64,000 bases of DNA from contig CANRPD010000004.1 of assembly GCA_947632385.1 (NCBI GenBank), positions 190 through 64,189 on the forward strand, in the 5' to 3' direction. Below are positions 8,087 through 21,982 of this stretch, one piece after another; the stretch's first letter is position 1; each line of letters opens with the position of its first letter. Origin of the DNA: an uncultured Clostridia bacterium. GTDB lineage: Bacteria > Bacillota > Clostridia > Oscillospirales > Acutalibacteraceae. The notes under the pieces are model-generated. The model searched no databases. It was given only the letters and a program-made list of their open reading frames with translations, and had not been told where the DNA came from. Both the position numbers and the translations under genes were made by a program.

Positions 8087-8165
8087 GGGGGGCCCAGGGG
8101 ACTGGACAGGGCCGTTCGGGGGGCGGATCTGACCCGAAAGGTACGTTTTTTGACCTGGGTGGTTG

Positions 8166-8194
8166 TTGAAATTCAAAAAAAGCCGGTGTACAAT
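8166..8194 (+). promoter_or_regulatory. SigmaA-type promoter for the giant surface protein
   Basis: TTGAAA-17 bp-TACAAT. Confidence 0.65.
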
Positions 8195-8257
8195 AATACC
8201 ATCAGGAGAAGGGGGTCCCATACCCCGAGCGGTCGTTGAACCGATTTGTCAGAAAGG

Positions 8258-10294
8258 ATGGATGATCGTATGAAGAAGACCAGACGCTTCTGGAAGCCGA
8301 GCCGCTTCTTGGCACTGGTGCTGGCCATGCTGATGGTGTTCGCCAACGTGGGAGACGCGCTGGCCACGACCATTGAGGCAGTGGTCACCCCAGTCGAAGC
8401 TCCGGCAGAGCCCGACACTGCGGGTGACGAGATCGCCCCCGTAGAGCCGGCTGCGCCGACAGAAGAAGACACGCAGGACCCCGCAACACCGGAGCCCAGC
8501 GACAGCACGCCTGCTTCTCCGGAGGAGGAGACCTCATCGGAGCCCACGAACGAGCCCGAAGAGACCGAGCCCTCTGAGGACGCGCAGGATGCTGAAAAGT
8601 CCGAGGACTTGACAGACGAAACCGACGAGGCTGACAAGGAAGAAGACCTTACACCTTCCGAGCCTGCCAAGGGCGACGAAGCCGCCGAGGGTGAACCCCA
8701 GGACGGCGAGCCTGTGGAGAGCGGACCTTCCACCGAGGAAGGGGAGGACGAAGTCAGCGAATACACCCTGACGGTCTCTCACGTGCTGGATACCGAGAAC
8801 CTGGGCGAGATCCGCAGCGAGAAGACCTACACCCTCAGTGCCGAGGAAGTGGCCAACGGGTTTGAGCTGACCTCTCTGGCGATGGAGCGCACGGGCATGC
8901 GGCTGGTCACCAGCAGCACTGCGCTGACCGCAGAGAGCTTTGACGAGAACCACAACGGCCTGGCCACCCTGAATTATGTGGTGGCGGATGGGTACATGGT
9001 CATTGCCGATGGCGGCACGGTCTTCAAAGGGGAGATCCAAGACGTCACGTTCGTTGAAGGGGTCACCGTTCCGGTCAGTGTCAACGTGTATATCACATAC
9101 GGTCAGGAGAACGAGACCAAGATCTCCGTGTATAACGAGACGGCTGGTGCGGTGGTCCCGAAGGGTGGTTCTGGTGACTTCACGTATTCTCTTGCCGATA
9201 CACCATACAGCGATCAGGCAATTCGTGAAATTACCTCTACCCCGGAGGGTACCTTCAAAGTTGAGGGGAATACCATCACCGGCACGGTTTCGAATGATGG
9301 GACGACCTACTCCGTCGATATTTATCTGGCAGTTGCGACGTTGTCCTATACGGTTCAGCATCAGTATGGTGATAAGGTCGAAACTGAAACCCTGTACGGC
9401 ATTCAGGGCGCCATGACTGAGGCGAAACCCAAAGAATTCGACCACTACATTGCGCCGGAAACGGTTGAGAATGTGACTCTTGACAAGCCGGACATCGTCA
9501 TCGAAATCCAGTACGAGCCGATGACCTACCATGTCACCTATGATACCAACGGCGGCAGCTATGTACCGGCCAAGGATGGGAAGTATGGGACAGAGGTTGA
9601 GATTTGGTCTGGCGACCCGGGCAAGACCTGTCCTTTGGAAGAGCATACGCATATACCGGCATCTGGAGAAGCACGGTGGAATGCAGGACAAACTAGAGGC
9701 TGCTATACCAGCCAATATGTTCCTAGTGGTTTTTTGGGGATGGAAGGAAGCTGGCAATGGGTCTTGACCTGCGGCAAGGAGGGGCACACCCACAGTGCTG
9801 CATGCCAGGTTGCCAGCACATTAGACCCCGCAACCACGCGGCCTGGCTACACCTTTGATGGTTGGTATCTGGATGAGGCCTGCACCCAACCTGCACCGAA
9901 CCAGAAACAGCTGGAAAAAGATGTGACGGTTTACGCCAAGTGGACCTCTGATGGAACGACGGTTTCTTACACCATCGTATACATGAAGGAGCAGTATAAC
10001 GAGGCTGGGAATGCCACTGAGGATGTGTTCTATGATTCTACAACAGGACATGCACAGGTGGACAGCACAGTTACTGCTACAGGATTACGGAACAGGCCGT
10101 CCAACTATTATGACAATGGAACAGCCGGACCTTCGGCTGTTGTCAAGGCAGACGGCTCTACGGTGGTTTATTACTACTACAAGCTGAAGGAATATACCTA
10201 CACGTTCAATATCAATAACAGTCAAGCCACTCTGAACAAAGGCGGTCACAGTTATACTGGGAGCCAGTATGTATTGCATGTAAAACTAGGCTAG
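8258..10294 (+). CDS. N-terminal part of a giant cell-surface protein (signal peptide, acidic linker, InlB-B/Listeria-Bacteroides-type repeat); ends at an in-frame TAG
   Basis: Signal peptide KKTRRFWKPSRFLALVLAMLMVF..A (start 8258 or 8270). Repeat motif PGYTFDGWYLD. The frame continues without another stop into 10424-16081. Confidence 0.8.
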   Translation: MDDRMKKTRRFWKPSRFLALVLAMLMVFANVGDALATTIEAVVTPVEAPAEPDTAGDEIAPVEPAAPTEEDTQDPATPEPSDSTPASPEEETSSEPTNEPEETEPSEDAQDAEKSEDLTDETDEADKEEDLTPSEPAKGDEAAEGEPQDGEPVESGPSTEEGEDEVSEYTLTVSHVLDTENLGEIRSEKTYTLSAEEVANGFELTSLAMERTGMRLVTSSTALTAESFDENHNGLATLNYVVADGYMVIADGGTVFKGEIQDVTFVEGVTVPVSVNVYITYGQENETKISVYNETAGAVVPKGGSGDFTYSLADTPYSDQAIREITSTPEGTFKVEGNTITGTVSNDGTTYSVDIYLAVATLSYTVQHQYGDKVETETLYGIQGAMTEAKPKEFDHYIAPETVENVTLDKPDIVIEIQYEPMTYHVTYDTNGGSYVPAKDGKYGTEVEIWSGDPGKTCPLEEHTHIPASGEARWNAGQTRGCYTSQYVPSGFLGMEGSWQWVLTCGKEGHTHSAACQVASTLDPATTRPGYTFDGWYLDEACTQPAPNQKQLEKDVTVYAKWTSDGTTVSYTIVYMKEQYNEAGNATEDVFYDSTTGHAQVDSTVTATGLRNRPSNYYDNGTAGPSAVVKADGSTVVYYYYKLKEYTYTFNINNSQATLNKGGHSYTGSQYVLHVKLG

Positions 10295-10423
10295 GACATT
10301 TCCGGCCAGTGGCCGAGCAAGGGAGACTTTACGCCGGATAACCAGGCCAACCGGTTCAATGGATGGGATCCCAGTCATACCAATACCAATTATTTAACCA
10401 AACGTTATAAAGTTACAGAAGAG

Positions 10424-13400
10424 ATGCTGCCAAACAATGGCAACAGCGTTACGTTTACGGCACAGTGGAGCGGTAGTGTTTCTTCTCACAAGGTTGAATA
10501 CTGGCTGCAAGATGTGAGTGGCAACGGGTATACGAAGTCGGAAGAGTATTCTGAGACGTATAACTCCAACACGTCTGATCTAAGCGCGAAGGAGATTGCA
10601 GGTTATACGCATGTAAAAACGCCGCAAGGCTATAATGGTTCTTCTGGCAATACCTCCCGTTTCTACTATGACCGGCTTAAGTACAGCATCAAGTTCTATG
10701 TGGATGGGGAAGTAAATAAGACCGTGTCTGATGTTCGGTTTGACGCGAACATTCTAAACCAGTATTATGACCCCCAAAACACCAAGCCCAATGAGAGAGT
10801 ATTTGATGGCTGGTATGACAACGCCGAGCTGCAGGGCACCAAGTACACGTTTGACAAAATGCCCTCTCACGACCTGGTGCTGTATGCCAAGTGGGCGCCC
10901 AAGCAGGTGACCATTACCTACATGGACGACTCAAGAGAAATAGACCATGAGACAATTGGCTACGGCACAACGCCTCCGAATAAGTACAGTGAAAAGACAG
11001 GCTATGTCTTCGGAGGCTGGTACACCGATAAAGACCTGACCCAAAGCTTCGACATCAACGCCCCGCTGACGGAAGACCAAACCGTTTACGGCAAGTGGAC
11101 GCAGAAGGCGACTACTTCGTACACGGTGCGGTACGTGGATGAGGAGGACAACCTAATCCCCAAGACCGAGGAAATAGTAAAGTCTGACCGCCGTGTGGGT
11201 AGTTCCGTGACTGAGTTCGCGCCTGAATTCGAAGGCTACTATTTGGTGGGCAGCTACTCGCAGAGTATCGCAAGCCTGGACGCGGATCCTTCTAAAAACG
11301 TCATTAAATTTGTGTATGCCGAGAAGAACAGTAAGTACTACCAAGTGCGCTACACGAAAGGCGACGTTGACTATCCGGCTGATACTGACGGCAAAGAGTA
11401 CCCCATCACGAGCAATAGTATCACTGTTTGGGCAAATAAGGACATAGTCAATAAGCTTGCCCAAGAAGGGTATTCCATTGAAGGAAATGGCTCGGAAACG
11501 GTGTACTACAAGGTCGTGAAGGATCCCACTAATGGGATGGTTGTCACGTTCAACTTCGTGCCGACGGAGTTCTCCATTACCTATGAGGGCTTGGAAGATG
11601 CGACTGTAAGTGGCAACCCCGAGACCTACACGGTCAATGATGAGTCTTTCACACTGAATAACCCCACCAAAGAAGGTTATGAATTCCTTGGCTGGGAATT
11701 GACCAAGGGGCAGTCCGAATCCTTTGATGGCAAGCATGTCACCGTTGCTAAGGGTTCTGTCGGCGACTTGACGTTCACGGCGAACTGGAAGGCAAAGAGT
11801 TTCAATGTCCATGTGAAGCATGTGGTGCTGGAAACCAGAGAAACGTTGGAGGATTCTTATAACCAACCTGTCACAGGCCCCGCATGGCGGTGGGACGCCT
11901 CAGAGGAGGTTACTAAGTATCAGCCTAATGGCTATACTGATGAGACTAGCGGAACTCATTATGTCTGGGATCATGCGGCTTCGACTGTCCCAAATGAAAA
12001 ATGGGCTGGAGAAGGCTGGGAAAAGGATGGCGTTACCATTACCGTCTACTACGCCACGGATGCCAACAACGACGACATTGCTGATTCCGAGCAGAACGTT
12101 GTTGTGACAGTGAAAGGCCATACAGATTCCGTAACCTATGACGGACAAGAACATCCTGTCCAAGGTTATGACTTAGAAGTGGTTGTTGGCGATTCTGTTA
12201 GCAATGAGCTCCCGAAGGGGGTAGAGACTCAGTTCCTGGATCCCTCGGAAGCGACGGCTTCTGGTAAGGACGCTGACAATTACCCAATGGGTTTGCAGCA
12301 AGAAGACTTTACGGTTGTAGATAAGGGTAGCTTCGACAGCGTTACCGTTGTGGTAGAGGACGGCCAGCTGACGATCGAACCGCGCAAGGTGACGCTGACC
12401 TCTGCTGACGGCAGCAAGCAGTACGACGGCACGCCGCTGACGAACGATGAGATCACCGTGGGCGGTGATGGATTCGTCGAGGGCGAAGGTGCAACGTACA
12501 ACGTGACCGGCAGCCAGACGCTGGTCGGCGACAGCAAGAATGAGTTCACCTACACGCTGAACGAGGGCACCACGGCTAAGAACTACGAGATCACCAAGAC
12601 CGAAGGCACGCTGACGGTTACGGACCGCACCAACAAGTACGAGATCACGGTGAATGCGAACAGCGACACCGCGACCTACGACGGGCAGAACCACAGCGTA
12701 AGTGGTTTCGAGAGCCTGACCTTCGAGGTGGAGGGCAACACCTACACCGTGGAGGGCCTGAGTGCTTCCGCAAACGGCAAGGACGCTGGAACGTACGATT
12801 CTAAGGTGACCGGCACCGCGGTTGTGAAGGACGCTAAGGGCAACATCGTGACCGCACAGTTCACGGTGAATACCGTAGACGGCAAGCTGACGATCGACAA
12901 GAAGGCCGCAACGGTGAAGTCTGCCAGCGCCGAGAAGCAGTACGACGGCACTGAGCTGACCGCGCCGGAAGTGACCGGCGAAGGCTTCGTGGAAGGCGAG
13001 GGCGTGACCGGCACCGCGACTGGCAGCCAGACGCTGGTCGGCAGCAGCGAGAACCCGTTCACCTACAAGGCAAACGCGGGCACGAACCTTGAAAACTACA
13101 CGATCACCGAAACCAAGGGCACACTGACGGTTAAGGATCGCACCGAGAAGTACGAGATCACGGTGAATGCGAACAGCGACACCGCGACCTACGACGGGCA
13201 GAACCACAGCGTAAGTGGTTTCGAGAGCCTGACCTTCGAGGTGGAGGGCAACACCTACACCGTGGAGGGCTTGAGCGCTTCCGCAAGCGGCAAGGACGCG
13301 AAGGAGTATCCCAGCACTGTGACCGGCACCGCGGTTGTGAAGGACGCTGCTGGTAACGACGTGACCGCACAGTTCACGGTATCGACCGAGGACGGCAAGC

Positions 13401-16081
13401 TGACGATCAACAAGCGCAAGGTGACGCTGACCTCTGCGACGGACAGTAAGGAGTACGATGGCACACCGCTGACGAATGGCACAGTTACCGTGACCGGTGA
13501 TGGATTCGTCGAGGGCGAAGGTGCAACGTACACTGTGACCGGCAGTCAGTTGCTGGTTGGCAATACCGCGAATACGTTTGACTACACGCTGAACGAGGGC
13601 ACCAAGGCCACGAACTACGAGATCACCAAGACCGAAGGCACGCTGACGGTTACGGACCGCACCAACAAGTACGAGATCACGGTGAAGGCAAAGAGCGACA
13701 CCGTGACCTACGATGGCCGGGAGCATAACGTAAGTGGCTTTGAAAGCGTGACGGGTTCAGATATTACCGGTAACGCCGAAACGTTGGCATTCACACTGAA
13801 CGGCGTTACCTACACGGTAAGCGGCCTGAGTGCTTCTGTAAGCGCGACAAACGCGGGTGAATATACCAACGAAGTGACCGGCACCGCAGTTGTGAAGGAC
13901 GCTAAGGGAAACATCGTGACCGACCAGTTCACGGTGGAGACCGAGAACGGCACACTGAAGATTCAGTCGACGGGACTTACCGTGACCAAGACGGCTACCA
14001 GCAAGCCTGCGAATGGCGAAGCGTATGCCCTCGGTGAGGAGATCACCTACACGATCACCGTCAAGAACACTGGAGAAGTTGCCCTGACGGATGTCGAGGT
14101 AAATGATGGGCTGACCAACGATCAATGGTCGATTGGCCGTCTTGAACCGAATGCGACTGAGACCTTCACCGCTACGCATACTGTGACGGAAAACGACATC
14201 GCGGCTCGTGAAGTTGTGAACACCGCGACTGCAACAGGTCGTGCTAATAACCAGTATGAGGTGTCTGCGAACGCTACTGCGACCGTGAACACGGTTCCTG
14301 CGAACCGCCATGTGACGATCGAGAAGAAAGCGACGAGCACGGCTGCAAGAGAAGACGGCAAGTACGCCCTTGGTGAGACGATCACGTACAGCATCACGGT
14401 CACGAACGACGGCAACCAGACGGTTACGGATCTTACGGTGAATGATAAGCTGACCAATGATGAATGGACGATCGAATCCCTGGAGCCCGGTGCAAGCAAG
14501 ACCTTTACCACTTCGCATACTGTGAATGGGGATGACATCAAGGCTGGCAAAGTTGTGAACGAAGCGACTGCTACTAGCACTGACCCGAATGAGCCGGACG
14601 TTACTCCCGACACAGAAGAAGTACCGACAGTGACCGATTACGACTACACCGTCAATTACTATTATGACGATGAGTTGGGCGAGACAGTCAAGGGTAATCC
14701 AATTAAGTTTGGTGAACCCATCCCGTACGACAGGGAGAGCCCCAAAAAGTACGATGGCCACAACTATGTGTTCGAAAAAGTGACCAAGGGTCTCGATGAA
14801 AACAACGTAGAGGGTGTCATTACTACAAAGCCTGAATGGAACGTAGTTGATGTGTACTATGCGCTGGACGAGATGGGTGGTACTGATCCTGAGAATCCTG
14901 GCGACGAAATCGCTGACAAGTACCAGTATGAGATCATCTACCAGAGCGCTGGCAACGGCACGGTCGACCCGGCTGGCGGTGTGGTTACCACATTTGCCGA
15001 TGGCGCGACCAGTGGTACTGTGACTGCCTCCTCTACGGCTGAAGCCAATGAAGGTTACGCATTCGACGGCTGGACCAAAGGTGAAGAAATGCTGGACAGC
15101 GAAGCCCAACTGCACTACAGCTTCGAAGCCGAAGGTGGCCATACCTACACCTTCACCGCTCACTTCGATGTCGATGAGATCGGAACCGATCCTGAGGATC
15201 CTGAAAAACCCGGCGATGGTATCCCCGACAAGTATCAAGCGACCGTAACGTTCCATGTTGACAATGGTACTTGGGAGAATGGTGATACCGATGCCGTGCA
15301 AACGGTGGTTACACTCATGAAGGACGGCAAGCCTGCTGAAGACGGCGTAGCTTATCTGGAAGACGACCAAATCCCCACTGGTATGCGGCCGAACGAGAAT
15401 TACACGGGCGGTAGTTGGGGCGCGAACGTGCCTACGACGGATTTCCAAATCAAAGAGGACACGACCTTCACCTACAGCTTTGAGTCTGTTCCCACCCCCG
15501 ATCCGGACCCCGAAGAACCCGACGAGCCCGATCCGGAGGACCCGGATCCCGACGAACCCGAACCGACCGATCCCACCGATCCCGAGCCCGATGAGCCTGA
15601 ACCGACCGATCCTACCGATCCCGAGCCCGATGAGCCCGAACCGACCGATCCTACCGATCCTGAGCCCACGCCCGATGATCCCGACGAACCGGATGAGCCC
15701 GATGAGCCGGTCGTGCCTGTGACGCCGGACGAACCCACGCCTCCGGAAGGCCCGGCCGCCCCCGAGGGACCTGCAGCGCCTGACGCGCCCGCTCCCATCG
15801 TACCGGCGACCATCGCCCCTGAAGATGCGCCTTTGGCACCGGCTCCGGAAGAGGGACCTGCCACCATCGAGCCCGAAGCGGCTCCGCTGGCACCCGCTCC
15901 TGAGACCGACGAGCCCGAGGAGATCGTAGACGAGCCGGTTCCCACCACTGGGATCACTGAGATCGACTGCTGCATCCTCCACCTGATCATCATGCTGATT
16001 GCCTTTGTGGTTGGCGTTTACTACACCCACGACCGCAAGAAGCGGCAGGAGAAGGAATACGAAACGCGGATGGAGTTCTAA
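10424..16081 (+). CDS. C-terminal part of the giant surface protein/adhesin (InlB-B repeats, MucBP/MBG-like and DUF11-like repeats, Pro/Asp/Glu stalk, TM anchor)
   Basis: Motifs FDGWYDN, FGGWYTD, repeated TYDG units, EITYTITVKNTGEVALT. C-terminus VPTTG..CCILHLIIMLIAFVVGVYY..RKKRQ. Confidence 0.85.
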   Translation: MLPNNGNSVTFTAQWSGSVSSHKVEYWLQDVSGNGYTKSEEYSETYNSNTSDLSAKEIAGYTHVKTPQGYNGSSGNTSRFYYDRLKYSIKFYVDGEVNKTVSDVRFDANILNQYYDPQNTKPNERVFDGWYDNAELQGTKYTFDKMPSHDLVLYAKWAPKQVTITYMDDSREIDHETIGYGTTPPNKYSEKTGYVFGGWYTDKDLTQSFDINAPLTEDQTVYGKWTQKATTSYTVRYVDEEDNLIPKTEEIVKSDRRVGSSVTEFAPEFEGYYLVGSYSQSIASLDADPSKNVIKFVYAEKNSKYYQVRYTKGDVDYPADTDGKEYPITSNSITVWANKDIVNKLAQEGYSIEGNGSETVYYKVVKDPTNGMVVTFNFVPTEFSITYEGLEDATVSGNPETYTVNDESFTLNNPTKEGYEFLGWELTKGQSESFDGKHVTVAKGSVGDLTFTANWKAKSFNVHVKHVVLETRETLEDSYNQPVTGPAWRWDASEEVTKYQPNGYTDETSGTHYVWDHAASTVPNEKWAGEGWEKDGVTITVYYATDANNDDIADSEQNVVVTVKGHTDSVTYDGQEHPVQGYDLEVVVGDSVSNELPKGVETQFLDPSEATASGKDADNYPMGLQQEDFTVVDKGSFDSVTVVVEDGQLTIEPRKVTLTSADGSKQYDGTPLTNDEITVGGDGFVEGEGATYNVTGSQTLVGDSKNEFTYTLNEGTTAKNYEITKTEGTLTVTDRTNKYEITVNANSDTATYDGQNHSVSGFESLTFEVEGNTYTVEGLSASANGKDAGTYDSKVTGTAVVKDAKGNIVTAQFTVNTVDGKLTIDKKAATVKSASAEKQYDGTELTAPEVTGEGFVEGEGVTGTATGSQTLVGSSENPFTYKANAGTNLENYTITETKGTLTVKDRTEKYEITVNANSDTATYDGQNHSVSGFESLTFEVEGNTYTVEGLSASASGKDAKEYPSTVTGTAVVKDAAGNDVTAQFTVSTEDGKLTINKRKVTLTSATDSKEYDGTPLTNGTVTVTGDGFVEGEGATYTVTGSQLLVGNTANTFDYTLNEGTKATNYEITKTEGTLTVTDRTNKYEITVKAKSDTVTYDGREHNVSGFESVTGSDITGNAETLAFTLNGVTYTVSGLSASVSATNAGEYTNEVTGTAVVKDAKGNIVTDQFTVETENGTLKIQSTGLTVTKTATSKPANGEAYALGEEITYTITVKNTGEVALTDVEVNDGLTNDQWSIGRLEPNATETFTATHTVTENDIAAREVVNTATATGRANNQYEVSANATATVNTVPANRHVTIEKKATSTAAREDGKYALGETITYSITVTNDGNQTVTDLTVNDKLTNDEWTIESLEPGASKTFTTSHTVNGDDIKAGKVVNEATATSTDPNEPDVTPDTEEVPTVTDYDYTVNYYYDDELGETVKGNPIKFGEPIPYDRESPKKYDGHNYVFEKVTKGLDENNVEGVITTKPEWNVVDVYYALDEMGGTDPENPGDEIADKYQYEIIYQSAGNGTVDPAGGVVTTFADGATSGTVTASSTAEANEGYAFDGWTKGEEMLDSEAQLHYSFEAEGGHTYTFTAHFDVDEIGTDPEDPEKPGDGIPDKYQATVTFHVDNGTWENGDTDAVQTVVTLMKDGKPAEDGVAYLEDDQIPTGMRPNENYTGGSWGANVPTTDFQIKEDTTFTYSFESVPTPDPDPEEPDEPDPEDPDPDEPEPTDPTDPEPDEPEPTDPTDPEPDEPEPTDPTDPEPTPDDPDEPDEPDEPVVPVTPDEPTPPEGPAAPEGPAAPDAPAPIVPATIAPEDAPLAPAPEEGPATIEPEAAPLAPAPETDEPEEIVDEPVPTTGITEIDCCILHLIIMLIAFVVGVYYTHDRKKRQEKEYETRMEF
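12380..13980 (+). repeat. Three tandem two-domain repeats (~513-525 bp period) in the surface protein
   Basis: About 120 bp are identical between ~12637-12757 and ~13150-13270; the third copy is more diverged. Confidence 0.85.
15551..15667 (+). repeat. 3 x 39-bp tandem repeat encoding DEPEPTDPTDPEP
   Basis: Units start at 15551, 15590 and 15629. Confidence 0.85.
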
Positions 16082-16102
16082 ACAGTCATAGGAGAATGTG
16101 AA

Positions 16103-16294
16103 ATGGGCAATTTGCATCAATACGTTCACGAGACGTACGGGTTTTGCCTGTGGAACCTGCTGACCATCGTGCTGGCAGTGCTCCTGGTGGTTTGGCTGGT
16201 GGTGCATGTGGTACGCCAAAAGAAGCGTCAGCATGATTACCAGGATGAGCTGAGCCAAAAGACCCAGAACCTGAACGTCACAAAGAATCTGTAA
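16103..16294 (+). CDS. Small single-pass membrane protein
   Basis: AGGAGA RBS, one hydrophobic helix followed by RQKKRQ. Confidence 0.7.
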   Translation: MGNLHQYVHETYGFCLWNLLTIVLAVLLVVWLVVHVVRQKKRQHDYQDELSQKTQNLNVTKNL

Positions 16295-16310
16295 GAACTG
16301 ATTCCACAGC

Positions 16311-16342
16311 AGAAGCCCCCGACCAACTGGCCGGGGGCTTCT
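16311..16342 (+). terminator. Terminator-like hairpin after the surface-protein operon
   Basis: AGAAGCCCCCG..CGGGGGCTTCT. Confidence 0.6.
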
Positions 16343-16615
16343 CGTTTGCTGCGGGGAGGGGTCTCTTTTGCGCTGAGAGCTCCTACAAGACGTTTTTTGC
16401 TTGCAGGATGGGTTTCTATATTCCGGAACTGAAAGGCCCCTTCTCGGGGCTGTGAAGACCGTTTATGGAAATGCAAAAGCGAATCGGACGTTCCAATGCC
16501 TTTCTTTTTTGCTCTGACACCCCTAAAATCGATTTGAATTTGAAAGATGTGTTTCTATATTTCCAAGCAGAAAAGTCTCTTTATGAGGCGCAGAAGGCCC
16601 TTTATGGCGATGAGC

Positions 16616-16656
16616 AAAAAAACGGTCCTTCCCGGGGTGGGGAAGGACCGTTTTTT
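16616..16656. terminator. Bidirectional terminator ending the DUF5693 operon
   Basis: A-tract, AACGGTCCTTCCC / GGGAAGGACCGTT stem, T-tract. Confidence 0.75.
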
Positions 16657-16667
16657 GGAACCTATGA

Positions 16668-18293
16668 TCAAGGGGTGGGGGGATCTTTGCGAACGATCCA
16701 GCACACCAGGCCCAGCACCAGCAGCCCGATGCCAAAGCCGATCCCGGCGCCCAGGAGGGTGCGGATGACGGAGAGCAGGACCGGAGTGAAGGTGTGGCAC
16801 AGGGTGTTCACCACCGACACGGAGCCCACCAGCGCCAAAACCCCTGCGGGCAGGGCCAGAATGGGGATCCTGCGGGCGCACAGGGCCACGTAGGCGGCCA
16901 GGGCGGGGAAGGCCAGCAGCATTTCCTTGCTCCGCGGCCGGGCATAGAGGGTCTGTTCCAGCCAGGTGCGGGCGGCCAGCTCTGCCTGCGCCACGGGGAG
17001 CATGTTGTCCCCCGAACGCAGCAGCACCAGCACCAGCGCGCCGGCAGCGATGACAAGGATCAGCAGAATGAGGCCCACAGGCAGCTTTCGGATGTGTTCG
17101 GCGGGATAGGCGCGCAGGGTGGCAAACAGCAGCCCGGCGCCCACCAGCAGCGGCAGGGCCTGGGCCAGCTTCACTCCGGTGAACACCCCAAAGCCCAGCA
17201 GGTAATACCGGGTGCCCAGCAGAGCGGCCACCGTCATGCCGCCCACCAGGGAGATGCCCAAAAGCTCTGCCAGCAGCAAAAAACATTGCAAAGCAAGATT
17301 ATTCGTTTTCCCGCCCGTCTTCCAGGTACGGCACAGCAGCAGGGCCGCAAAGCACGGGGTCAGAACCGCCGTTCCAAAGGCGGCCAGCGTCTGCATCTGC
17401 CGGGGCAGCAGGATGGAACCGCCCAGGGCCACTGCGGTTTCGCCGACCAACAAAACGGTCTGCCAGAGAGGCGGCACCGGGAACAGAAACAGCAGGAACA
17501 GCACCAGCAGTGTCCCAGGGAACAGCACAGCCCCTCCCAGCAGGTAGCGGTTCAGGGTGGGAGCCGACAGGCAGGAGAACGTGTCGCCAAAAGACAATCC
17601 CCGGGCTTCGATGCGCTCTTTGAGCCCCTGCAGCATATCCGCATAGACTGCCGGGTCGGCCACCACGCCGCCGCCCTCTTTTTCCAGGGGCGTGACGATC
17701 ACCAGCCGCATGGAGCGGTCTGTGACGGCGCGAAACAGGATGTTTTCGCTCTCACAGGCGGGTTCCGCAGGCTCATAGTGGAAGCTGTACGCATCGTACA
17801 TGTAGAGGGTTTTGACCATGGGACCGGGCCAGATCTCCGGATCGAAGGATGCAGGCGCGATGGCCCCGGTCCGGGTGTAGTTTTCCACCAAGGCCACCGG
17901 GACCGATGGATCCCCGGTGTAGTCCCCAGGGGACGGATAGCCTTTGAAGCCCCGGTCCGGCGCGGTCGGCAGCAGGAAGGCGTCCCCCGGACAGGCAGCG
18001 GTCCCTTCCCGTGCGGTCTGCAGGCCGGCGGAGCGGGCCAGAGGCGCGGATTCCGCTTCATCGGCGTCGGTGAAGACCAGGAACCCCACTCCGGCGCTGC
18101 GCAGGTCTGCGAGCCATTGCGCCGGGGAGCGGCCGTCGGTTTCCCCCAGCAGCTGCACGTCGGTATAACGGATCGCAGCGGCCACGTTTTGAGAGGCGGT
18201 TTCGGCCGAGACCCGGCCGAACAACAGGGCGAGCGTACAGAGGAGGCCCGTCAGCAAGACGGGCCAGATCCAAAGCACCGGTCGTTTCTTCAT
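16668..18293 (-). CDS. DUF5693-like membrane protein
   Basis: N-terminal TM helix, extracytoplasmic domain, multi-TM C-terminus with FTGVKLAQALP, RPRSKEMLLAFP, VVNTLCHTFTP. Confidence 0.7.
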   Translation of the reverse strand: MKKRPVLWIWPVLLTGLLCTLALLFGRVSAETASQNVAAAIRYTDVQLLGETDGRSPAQWLADLRSAGVGFLVFTDADEAESAPLARSAGLQTAREGTAACPGDAFLLPTAPDRGFKGYPSPGDYTGDPSVPVALVENYTRTGAIAPASFDPEIWPGPMVKTLYMYDAYSFHYEPAEPACESENILFRAVTDRSMRLVIVTPLEKEGGGVVADPAVYADMLQGLKERIEARGLSFGDTFSCLSAPTLNRYLLGGAVLFPGTLLVLFLLFLFPVPPLWQTVLLVGETAVALGGSILLPRQMQTLAAFGTAVLTPCFAALLLCRTWKTGGKTNNLALQCFLLLAELLGISLVGGMTVAALLGTRYYLLGFGVFTGVKLAQALPLLVGAGLLFATLRAYPAEHIRKLPVGLILLILVIAAGALVLVLLRSGDNMLPVAQAELAARTWLEQTLYARPRSKEMLLAFPALAAYVALCARRIPILALPAGVLALVGSVSVVNTLCHTFTPVLLSVIRTLLGAGIGFGIGLLVLGLVCWIVRKDPPTP

Positions 18294-18311
18294 GGAGAGC
18301 TCCTTTCCGGG

Positions 18312-19802
18312 TCAGTGTTCGCGCTTTTTTGCGGGCCAGAAGCCTGCCAGGGGCAGGTAGAGGAGGAGTCCAGCCAGGCCCAGGGCCCCGCATTTGAGCA
18401 CCAACAGGGCTTTGCTGTCTCCAGGGGACACCAGCAGACGGGCGGCAAACACGCAGCCGCTGTACAGCACGGCGCTGAGCAGGAGACTGCGCGCCCACCG
18501 CAACGGGTGGAGCACGCCTTTCCGGCCTTTGAGGAAGGCGGCCAACAGGGCGATGCCCCCTGCCGTCAGCAGGAGAGCAGTGCCTGCGGCCAGAGCGCCC
18601 GGCGTGGGCAGGAGGCGGGTCAGGAGAAGATCCAACAGGAAGTTCCCGGCCAGCACCGCCAGGTTCACCATCAGCGGGACGCGGGTGTTCTGCATGGCGT
18701 AGTACGCTTTGGCCAGCAGGTCCAGCAGGGCAAAGCCCACCATGCCCAGGGCATACCGTGCAAATACCTCCCCGGTGAGGGCAGTGGAGAGTTGATCGAA
18801 GCTGCCCCCTTCGAACAGGACCCGAATGATGGGGACTCCGAAGGCCGAGAACAAGGCGGTCAAGGGCAGCAGGAGGAAGACGGTGTTCTCCACCACGGTT
18901 CCCACGTAGGAACGGTATTCGCTATCAGACATGGCGGTGTATTTTTCGCTCCATTTGGGGAACATCACCGCCCCGATGGAATAGATCAGCGTGGTGGTGA
19001 CGGGGGTGAACAGCTTGTCGGCGTAATAGAAGGCAGAGGGGACGCCCTCGCCAAAGGGAGCTGCCAGGGCGGTATCGGTGAGGTAGCAGAAGAGAAAGAT
19101 CGCCGTTGTGAACGCGGTGACAACAGCCGTGCGAAAGAACAGGGGCAGATAGGGGGCTTTCAGGTCCAGACGGAACCGGAAGGCGTAGTGTTCCTTCCAA
19201 AAATAGGGGACCGTCATGGCGAACTGCAGCAGCCAGGCTGCGCTGGAGACCACGGCAAAGGTCCACAGGCTCATATGGGGGCCGAAAAACAGCAGCACCC
19301 CGCACAGTTCCAGGTTGAACAGGAGGCTGAGACTGCCCTGCAGCGAATAGTGGCCCATGGCCTGGAACAGGGCCATGAGCAGGTAGGTCGTCACGATCAG
19401 GGGCAGGGTGACCGCCATCACCGTGGCATATCCGCGAAAGCTCTGCGGATCGGCGGTGGAGGAGGGATCCAGTACCCCCAGAGCGATGCAGCAGAGCATC
19501 CCTGCCGTGACGACCAAGGAAAGCAGACCGTTCAGGGTGATGAGGGTGTTGGCCGTTTGAAAGGCTTCTTCCCGGCTGAGGGTGAGCTTTTGAGATAAAA
19601 TGGGCACGGCCGCCAGACAAAGGGCATAGGCCGCCGTGGTGAACAGGTAGATGGTCCCGTTGTTGGCGGCGGTGAACTGGTCCACCTGGGCGGTGGTGCC
19701 GAAGGCCCGCGCCTGCAGAATGTCCCGAAGCATGCCCAGGCCTTTGGCGAGCATGGTCAGCAAAGCGACCCAGGAAATGGCGCTGAACAGGGTCTTTTTC
19801 AT
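18312..19802 (-). CDS. murJ: MurJ/MviN-family lipid-linked precursor flippase
   Basis: KGLGMLRDILQARAFGT, YYADKL, FEGGSFD..STALT, KAYYAMQNTRVP. ATG at 19802. Confidence 0.85.
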   Translation of the reverse strand: MKKTLFSAISWVALLTMLAKGLGMLRDILQARAFGTTAQVDQFTAANNGTIYLFTTAAYALCLAAVPILSQKLTLSREEAFQTANTLITLNGLLSLVVTAGMLCCIALGVLDPSSTADPQSFRGYATVMAVTLPLIVTTYLLMALFQAMGHYSLQGSLSLLFNLELCGVLLFFGPHMSLWTFAVVSSAAWLLQFAMTVPYFWKEHYAFRFRLDLKAPYLPLFFRTAVVTAFTTAIFLFCYLTDTALAAPFGEGVPSAFYYADKLFTPVTTTLIYSIGAVMFPKWSEKYTAMSDSEYRSYVGTVVENTVFLLLPLTALFSAFGVPIIRVLFEGGSFDQLSTALTGEVFARYALGMVGFALLDLLAKAYYAMQNTRVPLMVNLAVLAGNFLLDLLLTRLLPTPGALAAGTALLLTAGGIALLAAFLKGRKGVLHPLRWARSLLLSAVLYSGCVFAARLLVSPGDSKALLVLKCGALGLAGLLLYLPLAGFWPAKKREH

Positions 19803-21115
19803 GCGATCGCTCCTTTCGGGGAGGCCGGGGATTCGCCGGTGAAGCGCCGGGCATAGAGCAGGGTCAGGGCGAAGTAGAAGCCGGAGGTGACGCTGAACAG
19901 CGTGTGTCCTGCCAGGCACAGGTAGCCCACCGCCAGTCCCAGGGACAGCACACAGCACCAGGCCCGCAGGTCCAGGCGGCGGAACAGACCCCGCAGGAAC
20001 AGCACTCCCTGGGATGCGTACACCCAACAAAGCGCTGCGCCGCCCGGCAGGCCGTAGTACAAAAAGATCTCGGCCAGGTCCATTTCAACGACGGTGGCTT
20101 GTGTGCCCCGGCCCAGCCCAAAGAGCAGGGACTGGGGCAGAGCAGCCTGAAATTCCCGCCATGTCGCGAGGAGCTTGGTCGTTCGCCCGCTGAGCAGGGC
20201 GGTCTCTACGCCGGAGGCTTCGATATATTCCCCCGTGAAGGTCAGCGAACCGTACACTGAACCCACCAGTGAGGAGCCGATCAACAGGGAAAACAGGCCA
20301 AAAAGGAACCCGGAGGCAAGCAAAAACAGCCCGAAACGGGCAAGTTCCTGCACCGCTTTCGTGCGGAAAAAGCGCACCAGTGTCCAACCGCCCACCCCGA
20401 CCAGGGTGACCCCCAGCGCCAGGAACGTGGTCTTGGTGCCCAGCACCAGCATGGCGTTGAGGCCCATGGAGGCGGAAAGCAGGGGGAGGAGCCCTCCCGG
20501 AGCAGTGAGCCGGGGCGCCGTGAGCAGGCTGCACAGGGTCAAGGGCAGCAGCAAGAGCATCAGGGCGGCGGCGTCGTTTCCGGAAAAGAACAGGCCCCGA
20601 CAGCCCCGCAGGCCCATGGGATCGGCATAGGTGTAGAAACCGACGCCGCAGAGGAAGGGCACCAGGATGCCCAAGCTCGCCGCCAGCAGCGTCCAGGAGA
20701 AGAGCAAGTCCACCCGGAATCGGTCGCTGTCCGAGACAAAGAGATGGGAAAAGGCAAAAAAGGAGGCGATATTCAAGGCAAAACGGGCGATATAGGAAAC
20801 GTCCTCCCGGAGGGCAAAGGGCTTTCCGGAAAGCAGTTCTCCCCCCACGGACAGGACAAAGGCGGCCAGGACCAGCGCTCCAGCCAACAGGGCGGGACGG
20901 TCCCGCAGGAAAAGCAGCCCCACGGCCATGCCGGCCAGCATGGCCAGCCGCACGAACATACTGATGCTGACCGTCGGCATCTCGACGATCTGGAAGCTGC
21001 CCATCATCCCGCTGCCGCCGTTGAGCAGATAGATCTGCAGGCCGCTGAGGATGTCCAACAGGGGATTGACCGCCAGGAAGATCCACAGCAGGCGCGTCCA
21101 AATGAACTTGTGCAA
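19799..21115 (-). CDS. O-antigen ligase/polymerase (Wzy/WaaL-like) family membrane protein
   Basis: TTG start with GGAGA RBS, ~11 TM helices, motifs GLFFSGND, LGTKT, LLSGR, EMDLAEIFLYYG. Confidence 0.75.
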   Translation of the reverse strand: MHKFIWTRLLWIFLAVNPLLDILSGLQIYLLNGGSGMMGSFQIVEMPTVSISMFVRLAMLAGMAVGLLFLRDRPALLAGALVLAAFVLSVGGELLSGKPFALREDVSYIARFALNIASFFAFSHLFVSDSDRFRVDLLFSWTLLAASLGILVPFLCGVGFYTYADPMGLRGCRGLFFSGNDAAALMLLLLPLTLCSLLTAPRLTAPGGLLPLLSASMGLNAMLVLGTKTTFLALGVTLVGVGGWTLVRFFRTKAVQELARFGLFLLASGFLFGLFSLLIGSSLVGSVYGSLTFTGEYIEASGVETALLSGRTTKLLATWREFQAALPQSLLFGLGRGTQATVVEMDLAEIFLYYGLPGGAALCWVYASQGVLFLRGLFRRLDLRAWCCVLSLGLAVGYLCLAGHTLFSVTSGFYFALTLLYARRFTGESPASPKGAIA

Positions 21116-21173
21116 AAGCCCATCTCCGTTTCTTCGGGCGAGCACCCGACGCAAAAAAGAATATATCCAGTTT

Positions 21174-21202
21174 ATTCTACCACGAACCGGCGGTAGATTC
21201 AA
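21174..21202 (-). promoter_or_regulatory. SigmaA-type promoter for the ligase-murJ-DUF5693 operon, inside the element
   Basis: Minus strand TTGAAT-17 bp-TAGAAT with an extended -10 TGn. Confidence 0.7.
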
Positions 21203-21268
21203 GTAGCTGTCCCAAAAAGGCACTTTTGGCGATCCACCGCCCTTTGTGCAGGTCTTTCTCGCCCCCGT

Positions 21269-21769
21269 ATGTTCGTGCCGATGATCATAGGAGAGGTGCG
21301 GCGGTTCTTGCGGGACAACAACCCCGTCCGGGTGAGCCGTTCCATGCGGGACACGGCTTATAAGGCCATCCAGTGCCGGGAGCGCCTGACCAACGAGCAA
21401 GGCCGGGAACCTTCTGTGGAGGAGATCAGCGGGCAGCTGGGCATGCGGGCACAGGACGTGGTGGTAGCCCTGGAGGCCATCGTGGAGCCGGTGTCTCTGT
21501 ATGAGCCGGTGTTTTCCGATGGCGGGGACACCATCTATATCATGGATCAGGTGGGCGATGCCGACGGGGAAGGGAACTGGCTGGAGGAGATCGCCCTCAA
21601 ACAGGCCATTCGGCGGCTGAGCGACCGGGAAAAGCGGATCCTGTCCCTGCGCTTTTTGCAGGGCAAAACGCAGATGGACGTGGCCGGTGAGATCGGGATC
21701 TCTCAGGCACAGGTCTCCCGGCTGGAAAAGGGTGCCTTGGGGAAGATCAAACGGGAGATCCGCGCGTGA
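21269..21769 (+). CDS. sigG: 3' half of interrupted SigG (regions 2.4-4; SigG sequence resumes at 21275/21285)
   Basis: VPMIIGEVRRFLRDNNPVRVSRSMRD, VFSDGGDTIYIMDQV, GKTQMDVAGEIGISQAQVSRLEKGAL. Confidence 0.93.
   Translation: MFVPMIIGEVRRFLRDNNPVRVSRSMRDTAYKAIQCRERLTNEQGREPSVEEISGQLGMRAQDVVVALEAIVEPVSLYEPVFSDGGDTIYIMDQVGDADGEGNWLEEIALKQAIRRLSDREKRILSLRFLQGKTQMDVAGEIGISQAQVSRLEKGALGKIKREIRA
21275..21284 (+). other. attR core GTGCCGATGA
   Basis: Identical to 6339-6348; SigG homology resumes here. Confidence 0.88.
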
Positions 21770-21801
21770 ACTTCCCGCCGAAAACCGCAAAACCAAAAGA
21801 A

Positions 21802-21826
21802 AAAGAGACGACACCGTCGTCTCTTT
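21802..21826. terminator. Terminator after sigG
   Basis: AAAGAGACGAC-ACC-GTCGTCTCTTT. Confidence 0.7.
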
Positions 21827-21982
21827 CCTCTTGGACTCTGCTTAACTTCATGCACGTCGTTATTCTGATGAAGTAACAACATTGTAACATGTCTTGAGCC
21901 GGTTGTCAATCGCCAATTTTAGGGAATTGTTTTGAAATAAAGAATAAAAATAGTTGGAATATTTTCCATTCGTTGCCAAAAT

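What the first reader, a model, noticed from the sequence alone, without database searches (positions are those of the whole stretch)
8166..21202. The element's cargo is vegetative cell-envelope machinery, not phage genes
Seen: the cargo is two convergent operons, each with a near-consensus sigmaA promoter inside the element (TTGAAA-17-TACAAT at 8166-8194; TTGAAT-17-TAGAAT at 21202-21174). One encodes the giant surface protein plus a small TM peptide; the other encodes O-antigen ligase, MurJ and DUF5693. No phage structural, replication, relaxase or toxin-antitoxin genes are recognisable. Known: MurJ-type flippases and ligase/polymerases build wall glycopolymers. Inference: useful cargo would select for spores that keep or re-integrate the circle. 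Loss would give progeny with intact sigG and a different surface, coupling sporulation to surface phase variation.
Basis: partly seen in the sequence, partly recalled or inferred. Interest (0 to 1): 0.72.

Follow-up and report, generated by a model that had tools for sequence, protein, structure and literature searches.

The report
Cell-envelope cargo island inside sigG
A 15-kb stretch of DNA that splits the spore-development gene sigG in an uncultured rabbit-gut Clostridia bacterium carries no virus genes; it holds a broken adhesin gene and a cell-wall operon that sits in the ordinary chromosome of relatives, and it belongs to a widespread family of sigG-splitting islands, not found in the papers searched, that carry everyday metabolic genes.

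Summary
The observation largely holds. Both promoter strings sit exactly where stated. The 14,936-bp element between the sigG halves holds only a recombination module and two convergent units, each with its own promoter and terminator. No phage, conjugation, defence or toxin-antitoxin family was detected.

Two corrections:
- The "giant surface protein" gene is cut by one in-frame TAG (10292-10294). Homologues read Gln or Met there. Its codon composition is foreign.
- The ligase-MurJ-DUF5693 trio is host-like in composition. In relatives it is an ordinary chromosomal operon with the same promoter type and TTG start.

New context: the recombinase, together with a conserved small upstream ORF, belongs to a family found next to sigG fragments split at the same codons in at least 28 fetched loci from about 20 distinct Clostridia contigs. 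Cargo differs in almost every lineage: NAD salvage, NfnAB-like, Hcp, his operon, transporters, CRISPR-Cas9/ICE, phage-like. In Ruminococcus albus the cargo is conserved between strains, and the split sigG has dN/dS of 0.04-0.06.

So retention through the germ line is supported indirectly. "Surface phase variation" is not. Expression, excision and murJ copy number could not be tested. No paper on sigG-splitting elements was found.

The parts
6060..6348 (+). 5' segment of sigG (codons 1-96). As it stands the ORF reads on into the element to a stop at 6383.
   Evidence: Sigma70_r2. Joined to 21275-21769 it passes the NCBIfam SigG equivalog.
6339..6348 (.). Left copy of the 10-bp direct repeat GTGCCGATGA (attL core).
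   Evidence: R. albus elements cross over within the same codons. The reconstructed attP has its best dyad symmetry centred on the CC of the core, 14 of 24 positions.
6452..6625 (+). Small ORF (57 aa from the ATG; 61 aa from GTG 6440) directly upstream of the recombinase. Candidate directionality or accessory factor.
   Evidence: No Pfam, PHROG or NCBIfam hit. Homologous 40-60-aa ORFs sit in the same position in 21 other loci.
6677..8086 (+). Large serine recombinase (469 aa).
   Evidence: Resolvase + Recombinase + Zn_ribbon_recom. phrog_95 integrase, E 3.7e-106. TP901-1 and A118 integrase chains in the PDB. 35-45% identity to phage integrases.
8166..8194 (+). SigmaA-type promoter of the surface-protein operon (TTGAAA-17-TACAAT).
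   Evidence: Shuffle P = 0.002 within its intergenic gap.
8246..10294 (+). First piece of the surface-protein gene. The likely start is ATG 8270, with a Sec-type signal peptide. It ends at the in-frame TAG 10292-10294.
   Evidence: Flg_new. The TAG is present in the contigs of four runs.
10295..16081 (+). Rest of the surface-protein reading frame: Flg_new repeats, three tandem units of about 515 nt, DUF7507/DUF11, a Pro/Asp-rich linker, then VPTTG + hydrophobic segment + KKR tail.
   Evidence: Homologues run straight across the TAG position. GC3 is 0.66.
16103..16294 (+). 63-aa single-pass membrane peptide, preceded by AGGAG.
   Evidence: Only weak sub-threshold family hits.
16311..16342 (+). 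GC-rich hairpin after the + operon (terminator-like; weak T tract).
16617..16656 (-). Perfect 17-bp-stem hairpin flanked by A6 and T6, 12 nt after the DUF5693 stop (bidirectional terminator).
16668..18293 (-). DUF5693 membrane protein (541 aa).
   Evidence: PF18949, E 5.8e-73. AlphaFold2 model at pLDDT 88.6: an N-terminal anchor helix, an alpha/beta domain and a helical membrane domain (helices from residue 249). No PDB match at E <= 0.001; the best weak matches are TIM barrels.
18312..19784 (-). MurJ-family (MOP) flippase (490 aa).
   Evidence: PF03023, E 1.8e-40. TIGR01695 at 176.9 bits, below its cutoff of 235.55.
19799..21115 (-). O-antigen-ligase/polymerase-like membrane protein (438 aa, TTG start).
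   Evidence: PF13425, E 1.2e-15. The start context GGAG-N8-TTG is conserved in orthologues.
21174..21202 (-). SigmaA-type promoter of the ligase-MurJ-DUF5693 operon (TTGAAT-17-TAGAAT, TG-extended).
   Evidence: Shuffle P = 0.047. Equivalent promoters in L070, L071 and L072.
21275..21284 (.). Right copy of the 10-bp direct repeat (attR core).
21275..21769 (+). 3' segment of sigG (regions 2.4-4).
   Evidence: Sigma70_r3 and r4. Joined ORF.

Best explanation
The 14.9 kb between the sigG halves is a non-phage, non-conjugative cargo island. It is moved by a large serine recombinase and a small partner ORF, and this pair belongs to a family found at one codon position of sigG (…AVPM|I…) in many Clostridia.

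The cargo is composite.
1. A compositionally foreign, sortase-type adhesin gene with a small membrane peptide. It has its own sigmaA-type promoter and terminator, but in this population a TAG replaces a codon that homologues read as Gln or Met. At most a 682-aa secreted fragment can be made.
2. A copy of a three-gene envelope operon (Wzy/WaaL-like protein, MurJ-family flippase, DUF5693) with host-like composition. In relatives this operon is an ordinary chromosomal unit with the same promoter type. It most likely exports and attaches a lipid-linked wall glycan (lipid II or a secondary polymer) during vegetative growth.

Shown: gene identities, boundaries, promoter and terminator strings, the nonsense codon, synteny of the operon elsewhere, and the family of sigG islands with variable cellular cargo.

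Inferred:
- The cargo is transcribed by the housekeeping sigma factor, while the recombination module is not.
- For sporulation the island leaves sigG in the forespore.
- Because a spore does not divide, the circle stays in it and the integrase alone puts it back at germination.
- The envelope operon makes loss costly rather than producing a viable surface variant.
For: - Boundaries and an intact joined SigG.
- Recombinase domains.
- Only nine genes, none of phage, defence or conjugation type.
- Promoters and terminators. No sigmaA-like site ahead of sigG, and only poor ones (8 of 12, weak -35) ahead of the small ORF and recombinase.
- TAG confirmed in reads; homologues are contiguous across it, with Q or M at that position.
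- GC3 is 0.65-0.66 for the adhesin, 0.81 for the envelope operon and 0.81-0.94 for host genes.
- Ligase-MurJ-DUF5693 is syntenic in L069, L070 and L071, and MurJ-DUF5693 in L072, next to mreB/recD2, rplM-rpsI or pur genes, with no sigG or recombinase nearby. Their promoter and start context match.
- Thirty recombinase relatives in genomes and about fifteen in metagenomes (40-62% identity), at least 28 of the fetched loci beside sigG fragments broken at residues 84-100. Some of these loci are the same or near-identical contigs (L013=L043, L002~L038, L044/L046/L047~L025).
- Complete islands of 4.4-8.4 kb with NfnAB-like, NAD-salvage/MFS and GH2 cargo. Hcp cluster, his operon, transporters, GGDEF, CRISPR-Cas9/Tn916-like and phage-like genes in others.
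- In R. albus the split sigG has dN/dS 0.04-0.06 at dS from 0.06 to above 2, and the cargo is 73-97% identical between strains.
- The small ORF is conserved upstream of the recombinase.
Against: - No attB or attP joint in the source sample. Depth is only about 5x and only contigs are available.
- No RNA data, so vegetative expression rests on promoter strings and on orthologues.
- The broken adhesin shows that part of the cargo is decaying, which also fits an inert island.
- Copy number of the envelope operon in the genome is unknown.
- MurJ scores below the TIGR01695 equivalog cutoff, so its substrate is not established. DUF5693 has no known function.
- The R. albus evidence comes from another lineage, whose recombinase is only 47-48% identical to the window's.
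- In this window the recombinase sits at the opposite end, in the opposite sense relative to att, compared with every relative.
Confidence: 0.5

Rival explanations
1. Dead-end insertion. An integrative island happened to use a conserved sigG sequence as attB, sigG is simply inactivated, the host no longer sporulates, and the cargo is ordinary island cargo with no link to development.
For: - No excised form in the contigs.
- One cargo gene is already a pseudogene.
- By my recollection, not tested here, several host groups with such islands (R. albus, Christensenellaceae) are described as non-spore-formers.
- Phage-type serine integrases often target conserved genes (relatives).
Against: - Both sigG halves are intact here, and the joined product passes the SigG equivalog cutoff.
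- Four split R. albus alleles have dN/dS 0.04-0.06 over dS up to above 2, which is not what a dead gene shows.
- Sporulation-linked genes are present around split sigG copies: a PRC-barrel ORF resembling YlmC/YmxH by my reading at 23467-23763 with homologous ORFs beside sigG in relatives, and gerAC/gerAB in L013.
Confidence: 0.15
2. Decayed prophage or conjugative element. The island is what remains of a phage or ICE that integrated in sigG, lost its mobility genes and kept only 'moron'-type accessory genes.
For: - Relatives of the recombinase sit in a phage-like context (L001: dUTPase and others) and in a Tn916-like context with HTH_16, Sigma70_r4_2 and NlpC/P60 (L024).
- The recombinase is 35-45% identical to phage integrases.
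Against: - No remnant of any phage or ICE gene, and no spare non-coding DNA.
- The envelope operon matches host composition and is a chromosomal operon in relatives, promoter included, which is unlike a moron.
- Most complete relatives are equally free of phage genes.
Confidence: 0.15
3. The cargo is dispensable surface machinery. A share of spores lose the circle, giving viable progeny with intact sigG and an altered surface, so sporulation drives surface phase variation.
For: - The cargo is envelope-related and carries sigmaA-type promoters.
- Related organisms with uninterrupted sigG occur in other rabbit-gut samples. These differ in sequence and are not cured siblings.
Against: - The adhesin gene is already non-functional.
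- The flippase operon looks like housekeeping in relatives.
- Loss would be irreversible without re-acquisition, so it would not be phase variation.
- Long-term retention of islands and cargo in R. albus argues against frequent loss.
Confidence: 0.08

Closest known systems
gin element in gerE of Bacillus cereus ATCC 10987 (Abe et al. 2017, PMC5595907)
   Same: A non-prophage intervening element inside a sporulation gene. It has a short shared core at both junctions and a serine recombinase plus a small additional factor (GirC + GirX). It carries no phage genes, and its content varies between strains.
   Different: gerE is a mother-cell gene, so excision happens in a terminal cell. gin has 31 genes, three recombinases, lower GC than its host and mostly uncharacterised cargo. 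The element here interrupts the forespore gene sigG, has one recombinase, and its cargo includes a host-like housekeeping-type operon. No sequence relation between GirX and the small ORF was tested.
skin elements in sigK (B. subtilis, C. difficile) and SPbeta in spsM
   Same: They interrupt a sporulation gene (sigK is a sigma-factor gene) and use a large serine recombinase with a directionality factor. Precise excision reconstitutes the gene (summarised in PMC5595907, PMC5025042 and PMC4191935).
   Different: These are prophage or prophage-like. Developmental excision takes place in the mother cell, whose genome is discarded, so the element stays in the germ line without re-integration. A sigG element cannot use that route.
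Staphylococcal cassette chromosome (SCC) moved by CcrAB/CcrC
   Same: Non-phage cargo islands inserted at one conserved chromosomal site by large serine recombinases. Cargo is variable and composite. The window's recombinase gives partial sub-threshold hits to the CcrB, CcrA and CcrC models.
   Different: Scores are far below the Ccr cutoffs (127 against 900 bits). SCC inserts at the 3' end of rlmH (orfX) without inactivating it (my recollection, not checked here). SCC has no developmental role.
fdxN element excised by XisF in Anabaena heterocysts
   Same: A developmentally excised element with a large serine recombinase; sub-threshold XisF hit (108 bits against a cutoff of 375).
   Different: It occurs in a terminally differentiated cell of a cyanobacterium, and the interrupted gene and the element's other genes are different.
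Reversible prophage excision from comK in Listeria
   Same: Excision restores a host gene in a cell line that goes on living. The excised form is kept as an episome and re-integrates, which is the behaviour inferred here.
   Different: That element is a complete prophage and its trigger is intracellular growth. Nothing of the kind has been demonstrated for sigG.

Membership tests
Sporulation-gene intervening element (skin/gin class) | Interrupts the coding sequence of a sporulation gene so that precise removal restores one ORF | tested here: met
   sigG is split at 6348 and 21275. The joined 257-aa ORF scores 410.7 bits on NF006071 SigG (cutoff 372).
Sporulation-gene intervening element (skin/gin class) | Carries its own site-specific recombinase, with a short identical core at both junctions | tested here: met
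   Large serine recombinase at 6677-8086. A 10-bp core is present at both ends. The reconstructed attP has imperfect dyad symmetry.
Sporulation-gene intervening element (skin/gin class) | A small directionality or accessory factor works with the recombinase | tested here: inconclusive
   A conserved 40-60-aa ORF lies directly upstream of the recombinase in the window and in 21 other loci. It matches no known family, and its function was not tested.
Sporulation-gene intervening element (skin/gin class) | Excision during sporulation | not testable with these tools
   Only low-depth contigs of a gut metagenome are available, and they show no attB or attP joint. Indirect support: dN/dS 0.04-0.06 for split sigG alleles in R. 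albus.
Sporulation-gene intervening element (skin/gin class) | The interrupted gene acts in the mother cell (terminal cell line) | tested here: not met
   The gene is sigG. By established knowledge SigG is the late forespore sigma factor (e.g. PMC3789822).
Prophage | Structural, packaging, lysis or replication genes | tested here: not met
   Only the integrase matches PHROGs. Pfam finds nothing of this kind.
Integrative conjugative or mobilisable element | Relaxase, coupling protein, type IV secretion genes or oriT | tested here: not met
   No such Pfam family among the nine genes. oriT was not searched for.
Wzx/Wzy-type glycopolymer assembly locus | MOP-family flippase together with a Wzy/WaaL-like polymerase or ligase | tested here: met
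   MurJ PF03023 and O-antigen_lig PF13425 are adjacent in one operon.
Wzx/Wzy-type glycopolymer assembly locus | An initiating transferase and glycosyltransferases that build the repeat unit lie in the same locus | tested here: not met
   None in the element. The operon would depend on genes located elsewhere.
Lipid II flippase MurJ (equivalog) | Score above the curated equivalog cutoff | tested here: not met
   TIGR01695 gives 176.9 bits against a cutoff of 235.55. This supports family membership only.
Sortase-anchored surface adhesin | Signal peptide, repeat domains and a C-terminal sorting signal in one intact ORF | tested here: not met
   A signal peptide and VPTTG + hydrophobic segment + KKR tail can be read directly, and repeats are present. 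The ORF is broken by TAG at 10292-10294. The Pfam Gram_pos_anchor model was not matched.

The most novel reading that the evidence does not exclude
sigG islands are germ-line intervening elements that excise in the forespore and must re-integrate at germination. They become impossible to lose by capturing housekeeping operons: here possibly the only ligase-MurJ-DUF5693 operon; elsewhere the his operon next to polC, NAD salvage, and NfnAB-like genes. The host's cell-wall flippase would then ride on a DNA circle through dormancy, and a developmental DNA rearrangement would be reversible in the cell line that survives.
Probability: 0.25. Interest if true: 0.85.

Novelty: new variant of a known kind. 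Interest (0 to 1): 0.62.

Why it matters
In the papers I read, and to my knowledge generally, described intervening elements of sporulation genes sit in mother-cell genes, where excision costs the lineage nothing. An element in sigG has to be removed in the forespore, the cell that becomes the next generation. How it persists is therefore an open question. The cargo bears on that question. Here, and in relatives, the cargo consists of ordinary cellular operons rather than phage genes. In one lineage it is conserved together with a selectively maintained split sigG. That makes an excise, carry and re-integrate cycle testable, and with it the idea that essential cargo enforces retention. It also offers a family of site-specific large serine recombinases, each with a small conserved partner ORF, as candidates for reversible recombination tools. 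Finally, it adds a genomic association (always beside a MurJ-family flippase) for DUF5693, a family with no known function.

Tried and rejected
- Exact look-up of the recombinase: not on record.
- RNA runs holding the envelope operon: none, so expression is untested.
- Contigs of the source sample (X1-X4): both junctions appear only in the integrated form and no joint spans the element. Depth of about 5x is too low to exclude rare excision.
- Two other rabbit-gut runs (X5, X6): joints across the element at shifted positions. These come from divergent organisms with uninterrupted sigG (for example …PMISGEIRRYL), not from cured cells of this strain.
- Foldseek of a confident DUF5693 model against the PDB: nothing at E <= 0.001, only weak TIM-barrel resemblance for the N-terminal domain.
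- Rfam and tRNA scans: no riboswitch or leader in the cargo 5' regions and no suppressor tRNA in the window.
- PADLOC: nothing.
- Secondary att-like sites inside the element: only chance one-mismatch matches of the 10-mer.
- IMG/VR relatives of the recombinase (47% identity): no sigG next to them, so uninformative.
- Literature: no paper on a split sigG and none mentioning DUF5693.
- Assigning the conserved -10-like motif upstream of the small ORF to SigF/SigG: the C. difficile papers give the consensus only as logos, so this remains a lead.
- L013 geometry: I could not reconcile it with a simple insertion.

Full report
**1. What is at the coordinates**

The window is about 62% G+C. Runs from one rabbit-gut metagenome sample hold 70-85% of its sampled words.

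sigG is split.
- Codons 1-96 lie at 6060-6348 and the rest at 21275-21769.
- A 10-bp repeat, GTGCCGATGA, is present at both junctions.
- The joined 257-aa protein scores 410.7 bits on the NCBIfam SigG equivalog NF006071 (cutoff 372). It scores well below cutoff on SigF, SigE and SigK.
- The intervening DNA is 14,936 bp, counting one copy of the core.

It contains nine genes and about 0.9 kb of non-coding DNA:
- a small ORF (6452-6625);
- a large serine recombinase (6677-8086; Resolvase + Recombinase + Zn_ribbon_recom);
- a surface-protein reading frame (8246-16081; Flg_new, DUF7507, DUF11);
- a 63-aa single-pass membrane peptide (16103-16294);
- on the other strand, an O-antigen-ligase-like protein (21115-19799), a MurJ-family flippase (19784-18312) and DUF5693 (18293-16668).

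**2. Promoters and transcription units**

- Across 5800-22000 the count of sigma-70-like matches is at chance level (5 against 5.9 +/- 2.5).
- Each site is nonetheless the best match on the correct strand of the single gap ahead of its operon. Dinucleotide-preserving shuffles of those gaps reach the observed score in 0.2% and 4.7% of trials.
- Orthologous chromosomal operons (L070, L071, L072) carry TTGAAG-17-TACAAT or TTGAAA-17-TATACT about 60 nt ahead of the same GGAG-N8-TTG start.

Each operon ends in its own hairpin:
- 16311-16342 after the + operon;
- a perfect 17-bp stem flanked by A6 and T6 at 16617-16656, 12 nt after the DUF5693 stop.

By contrast, no sigmaA-like site of 8/12 or better lies ahead of sigG. 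Only poor ones lie ahead of the small ORF and recombinase. No terminator-like site separates the sigG start from the recombinase.

The layout fits cargo under housekeeping control and a recombination module under other control. No RNA run holds the sequence, so this is not demonstrated.

**3. No mobile-element genes apart from the recombinase**

- PHROGs matches only the integrase (phrog_95, E 3.7e-106).
- PADLOC matches nothing.
- Pfam and NCBIfam give no relaxase, replication, structural or toxin-antitoxin family.
- Rfam finds no RNA family inside the element.
- The recombinase is a typical large serine integrase. It matches the TP901-1 catalytic domain and the A118 C-terminal domains in the PDB. 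It is 35-45% identical to phage integrases such as phiFC1.

**4. First correction: the surface gene is broken**

The two large + strand ORFs are in the same frame, separated by a single TAG at 10292-10294.
- Contigs from four runs of the source sample cover the codon with no differences.
- Homologues of 900-1,200 aa align straight across it: …VKLGMNIADKWP…, …LGQDISALWP…, …IGQDISTLWP…. The simplest history is therefore CAG (Gln) to TAG.
- No suppressor tRNA lies in the window.

What can be made is a 682-aa fragment with the signal peptide (MKKTRRFWKPSRFLALVLAMLMVFANVGDALA) but without the C-terminal VPTTG + hydrophobic + KKR sorting-type signal.

The gene is also compositionally foreign. Its GC3 is 0.65-0.66, against 0.81-0.94 for host genes and 0.88 for the recombinase. 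Its homologues lie in ordinary chromosomal contexts, one of them near a sortase.

**5. Second correction: the envelope operon looks like a housekeeping operon**

Its GC3 (0.81) lies at the low end of the host range. The closest DUF5693 proteins are about 60% identical. Their contigs show the same gene order:
- ligase-MurJ-DUF5693 in L069, L070 and L071 (52-57%, 66-69% and 56-59% identity respectively);
- MurJ-DUF5693 in L072;
- neighbours are mreB/recD2, rplM-rpsI and the pur operon, or dlt-like genes, with no sigG fragment or recombinase nearby.

No second copy lies in the 64-kb window. The rest of the genome could not be examined.

On function:
- The MurJ homologue scores 176.9 bits on TIGR01695, below the 235.55 cutoff, so only family membership is established.
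- DUF5693 modelled confidently (pLDDT 88.6, pTM 0.89). The model shows an N-terminal anchor helix, an alpha/beta domain and a helical membrane domain with helices from residue 249.
- Foldseek found no PDB match at E <= 0.001. The best weak matches are TIM barrels.
- No paper mentions the family.
- There are no glycosyltransferases in the element. The operon can only be the export and attachment end of a pathway encoded elsewhere.

**6.

Scans with the recombinase returned 30 relatives at 40-62% identity in genome contigs and about 15 in metagenome contigs, some of them duplicates of each other. In at least 28 fetched loci a sigG fragment broken at residues 84-100 lies within about 0.1-1.5 kb of the recombinase. 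Counting duplicated and near-identical contigs once (L013=L043, L002~L038, L044/L046/L047~L025), that is about 20 distinct contigs.

In R. albus the crossover lies in the same codons: …GCTGTGCCAA|TG….

Complete islands:
- L011 (Christensenellaceae MAG): 4.4 kb, a GltD/NfnB-like and an NfnA-like oxidoreductase.
- L027 and L048 (R. albus KH2T6 and a metagenome): about 6.1 kb, isochorismatase, a PRT-like protein, NAMPT and an MFS transporter.
- L025 and L044 (R. albus 8): 8.4 kb, the same cassette plus a GH2 mannosidase.

Partial views:
- Hcp with Fe-S and NifX-like genes (L038);
- an ABC-transporter ATPase and, by my reading of the sequences (no family search was run on L039), HlyD-like and formate/nitrite-type transporters (L039);
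- GGDEF, confirmed by Pfam, with what I read as a DAHP synthase and a hydrolase (L004);
- a CBM/GDSL/LRR protein confirmed by Pfam, with what I read as a LytTR two-component system and a ZIP transporter (L012, L015);
- the his operon, preceded by the end of polC (L021, also L029);
- Cas9-Cas1-Cas2 beside Tn916-type HTH_16, sigma and NlpC/P60 genes (L024);
- phage-like early genes (L001).

None of these loci has the window's cargo. Non-phage cellular cargo is therefore the rule in this family. The envelope cargo is unique to this element in the sample of loci examined.

**7. Are such islands kept?**

Four split R. albus-type sigG alleles, joined in silico, are full-length. They give dN/dS of 0.04-0.06 at dS from 0.06 to above 2. 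Their NAD-salvage cargo is 73-97% identical in protein sequence.

A gene that was merely dead would not behave this way. An island lost at each sporulation would not persist together with conserved cargo. This is indirect support, from another lineage, for excision followed by retention.

A spore does not divide, so a non-replicating circle would not be diluted. Large serine integrases recombine attP x attB without a partner, and excision needs a directionality factor (PMC12286644 abstract; PMC5595907).

A conserved 40-60-aa ORF lies directly upstream of the recombinase in the window and in 21 other loci (core M.I.R.[IV]NG[KR]P[VI]..EEL..L.I.N). It is a candidate for that directionality factor.

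In the window this module begins about 100 nt after attL, in the same sense as sigG. Read-through from the sigG promoter could therefore express it in the forespore. That is inference only.

**8. What remains unknown or argues against**

- The source sample shows only the integrated form, at about 5x depth and from contigs only.
- Other rabbit-gut samples contain abundant uninterrupted sigG from related but distinct organisms, plus low-depth pieces of this island.
- Every relative has the 3' end of the recombinase next to att, in either orientation with respect to sigG. The window has the 5' end of the module next to attL, so all cargo lies between the recombinase and attR.
- In L021 and L029 (his operon, polC) and in L013 (gerAC, gerAB, uppP, rpoD, dnaG), core genes lie on the element side of a junction and the other sigG half is not on the fetched DNA. 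These may be very large islands, inversions or dead genes.

**9. Comparison with what is known**

The closest described case is the non-prophage gin element in gerE, which has a serine recombinase GirC and a small factor GirX (PMC5595907). Next come the skin elements in sigK and SPbeta in spsM.

All of these interrupt mother-cell genes. That defining feature is not met here.

Full-text searches found no report of a split sigG. A survey of sporulation genes in Firmicutes reports split sigK genes but no split sigG.

The finding is therefore a new variant of a known kind. The cargo claim itself is descriptive and largely correct. The phase-variation idea built on it is not supported. The more interesting reading is that housekeeping-type cargo may enforce retention of a germ-line intervening element.

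Noticed in passing
window 10292-10294: A single in-frame TAG splits the roughly 2,610-codon surface-protein frame. Homologues read Gln or Met at this position. The TAG is present in the contigs of all four runs of the source sample.
   Followed up: yes
window 6452-6625; L001, L003-L009, L014, L016-L020, L022, L028, L039, L040, L042, L045, L050 (just upstream of each recombinase): A conserved 40-60-aa ORF (core M.I.R.[IV]NG[KR]P[VI]..EEL..L.I.N) always lies directly ahead of the sigG-type recombinase. It matches no known family. It is a candidate recombination directionality factor.
   Followed up: partly
about 20-40 nt upstream of the small ORF in L003-L005, L016-L019, L039, L042, L045, L050; window 6421-6430 (GGCCCATACT): A shared -10-like motif, GG(G)nATAnT, is preceded 13-15 nt upstream by GTTATA, TGCATA or TGTATT. 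It occurs in 13 of 22 loci against a 3% background; two of the 13 (L020, L040) look spurious, and the loci are not independent. It resembles forespore SigF/SigG-type promoters with upstream G as I recall them. This is a lead, not a result.
   Followed up: partly
L021 111-8706; L029 682-4553: On the element side of the sigG 5' junction, right up to the recombination module, lie the histidine biosynthesis genes. In L021 these are preceded by the C-terminal part of DNA polymerase PolC. The sigG 3' half is not within 11 kb.
   Followed up: partly
L013 (= L043) 9995-20807: The sigG 3' fragment (14568-14077, minus strand) has gerAC, gerAB, uppP, rpoD and dnaG beyond its junction. The recombinase lies on the other side, 2.7 kb past the sigG stop, behind TauE, carD, ispD and ispF, with no att-like core beside it. 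This does not fit a simple insertion.
   Followed up: partly
L024 730-11922: A type II CRISPR-Cas locus (Cas9, Cas1, Cas2; what looks like an array follows but was not checked) lies next to Tn916-type HTH_16, sigma and NlpC/P60 genes and a sigG-type recombinase that abuts the sigG 3' half. This looks like a conjugative element carrying Cas9 integrated in sigG.
   Followed up: partly
L025, L044, L027, L048 (R. albus 8, KH2T6 and metagenome contigs): The sigG islands of Ruminococcus albus share a NAD-salvage cassette (isochorismatase/nicotinamidase-like, PRT-like, NAMPT, MFS transporter) at 73-97% protein identity. Strain 8 has gained a GH2 mannosidase. The split sigG has dN/dS 0.04-0.06.
   Followed up: yes
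window 6677-8086 compared with all related loci: There are three arrangements. In the first, the 3' end of the recombinase abuts the sigG 3' half in the same sense. In the second, it abuts the sigG 5' half in the opposite sense. In the third, seen only in the window, the 5' end of the module abuts the sigG 5' half in the same sense. The family therefore inserts in both orientations, and in the window all cargo lies between the recombinase and attR.
   Followed up: partly
window 8246-16294 compared with the rest: Third-codon-position G+C is 0.65-0.66 in the surface-protein gene and 0.72 in the 63-aa peptide gene. It is 0.81 for the envelope operon and 0.81-0.94 for flanking host genes. The island is a composite of foreign and host-like modules, with a 270-bp non-coding seam at 16343-16616.
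   Followed up: yes
window 16668-18293: DUF5693 gives a confident AlphaFold2 model (pLDDT 88.6) with no significant match in the PDB. In every context seen it follows a MurJ-family gene, which suggests a functional partnership.
   Followed up: partly
window 23467-23763; L002 3760-4128, L038 9049-9417, L027 11814-12188, L030, L048: A PRC-barrel ORF resembling YlmC/YmxH by my reading (no family search was run on it) lies about 1.7 kb downstream of sigG in the window. Homologous ORFs (BLASTP cluster) lie directly beside sigG in several related loci.
   Followed up: no
window 340-622 and 59862-60053: tRNA-Arg(TCT), tRNA-His(GTG) and tRNA-Gln(TTG) form a cluster at the left end. A 6S RNA gene lies on the minus strand near the right end.
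   Followed up: no
window 5953-6348 and 21275-21700 in runs X5 and X6: Other rabbit-gut metagenomes hold abundant (up to about 165x) related but distinct sigG genes without an insertion. They also hold low-depth contigs that are 96-100% identical to parts of this island.
   Followed up: partly
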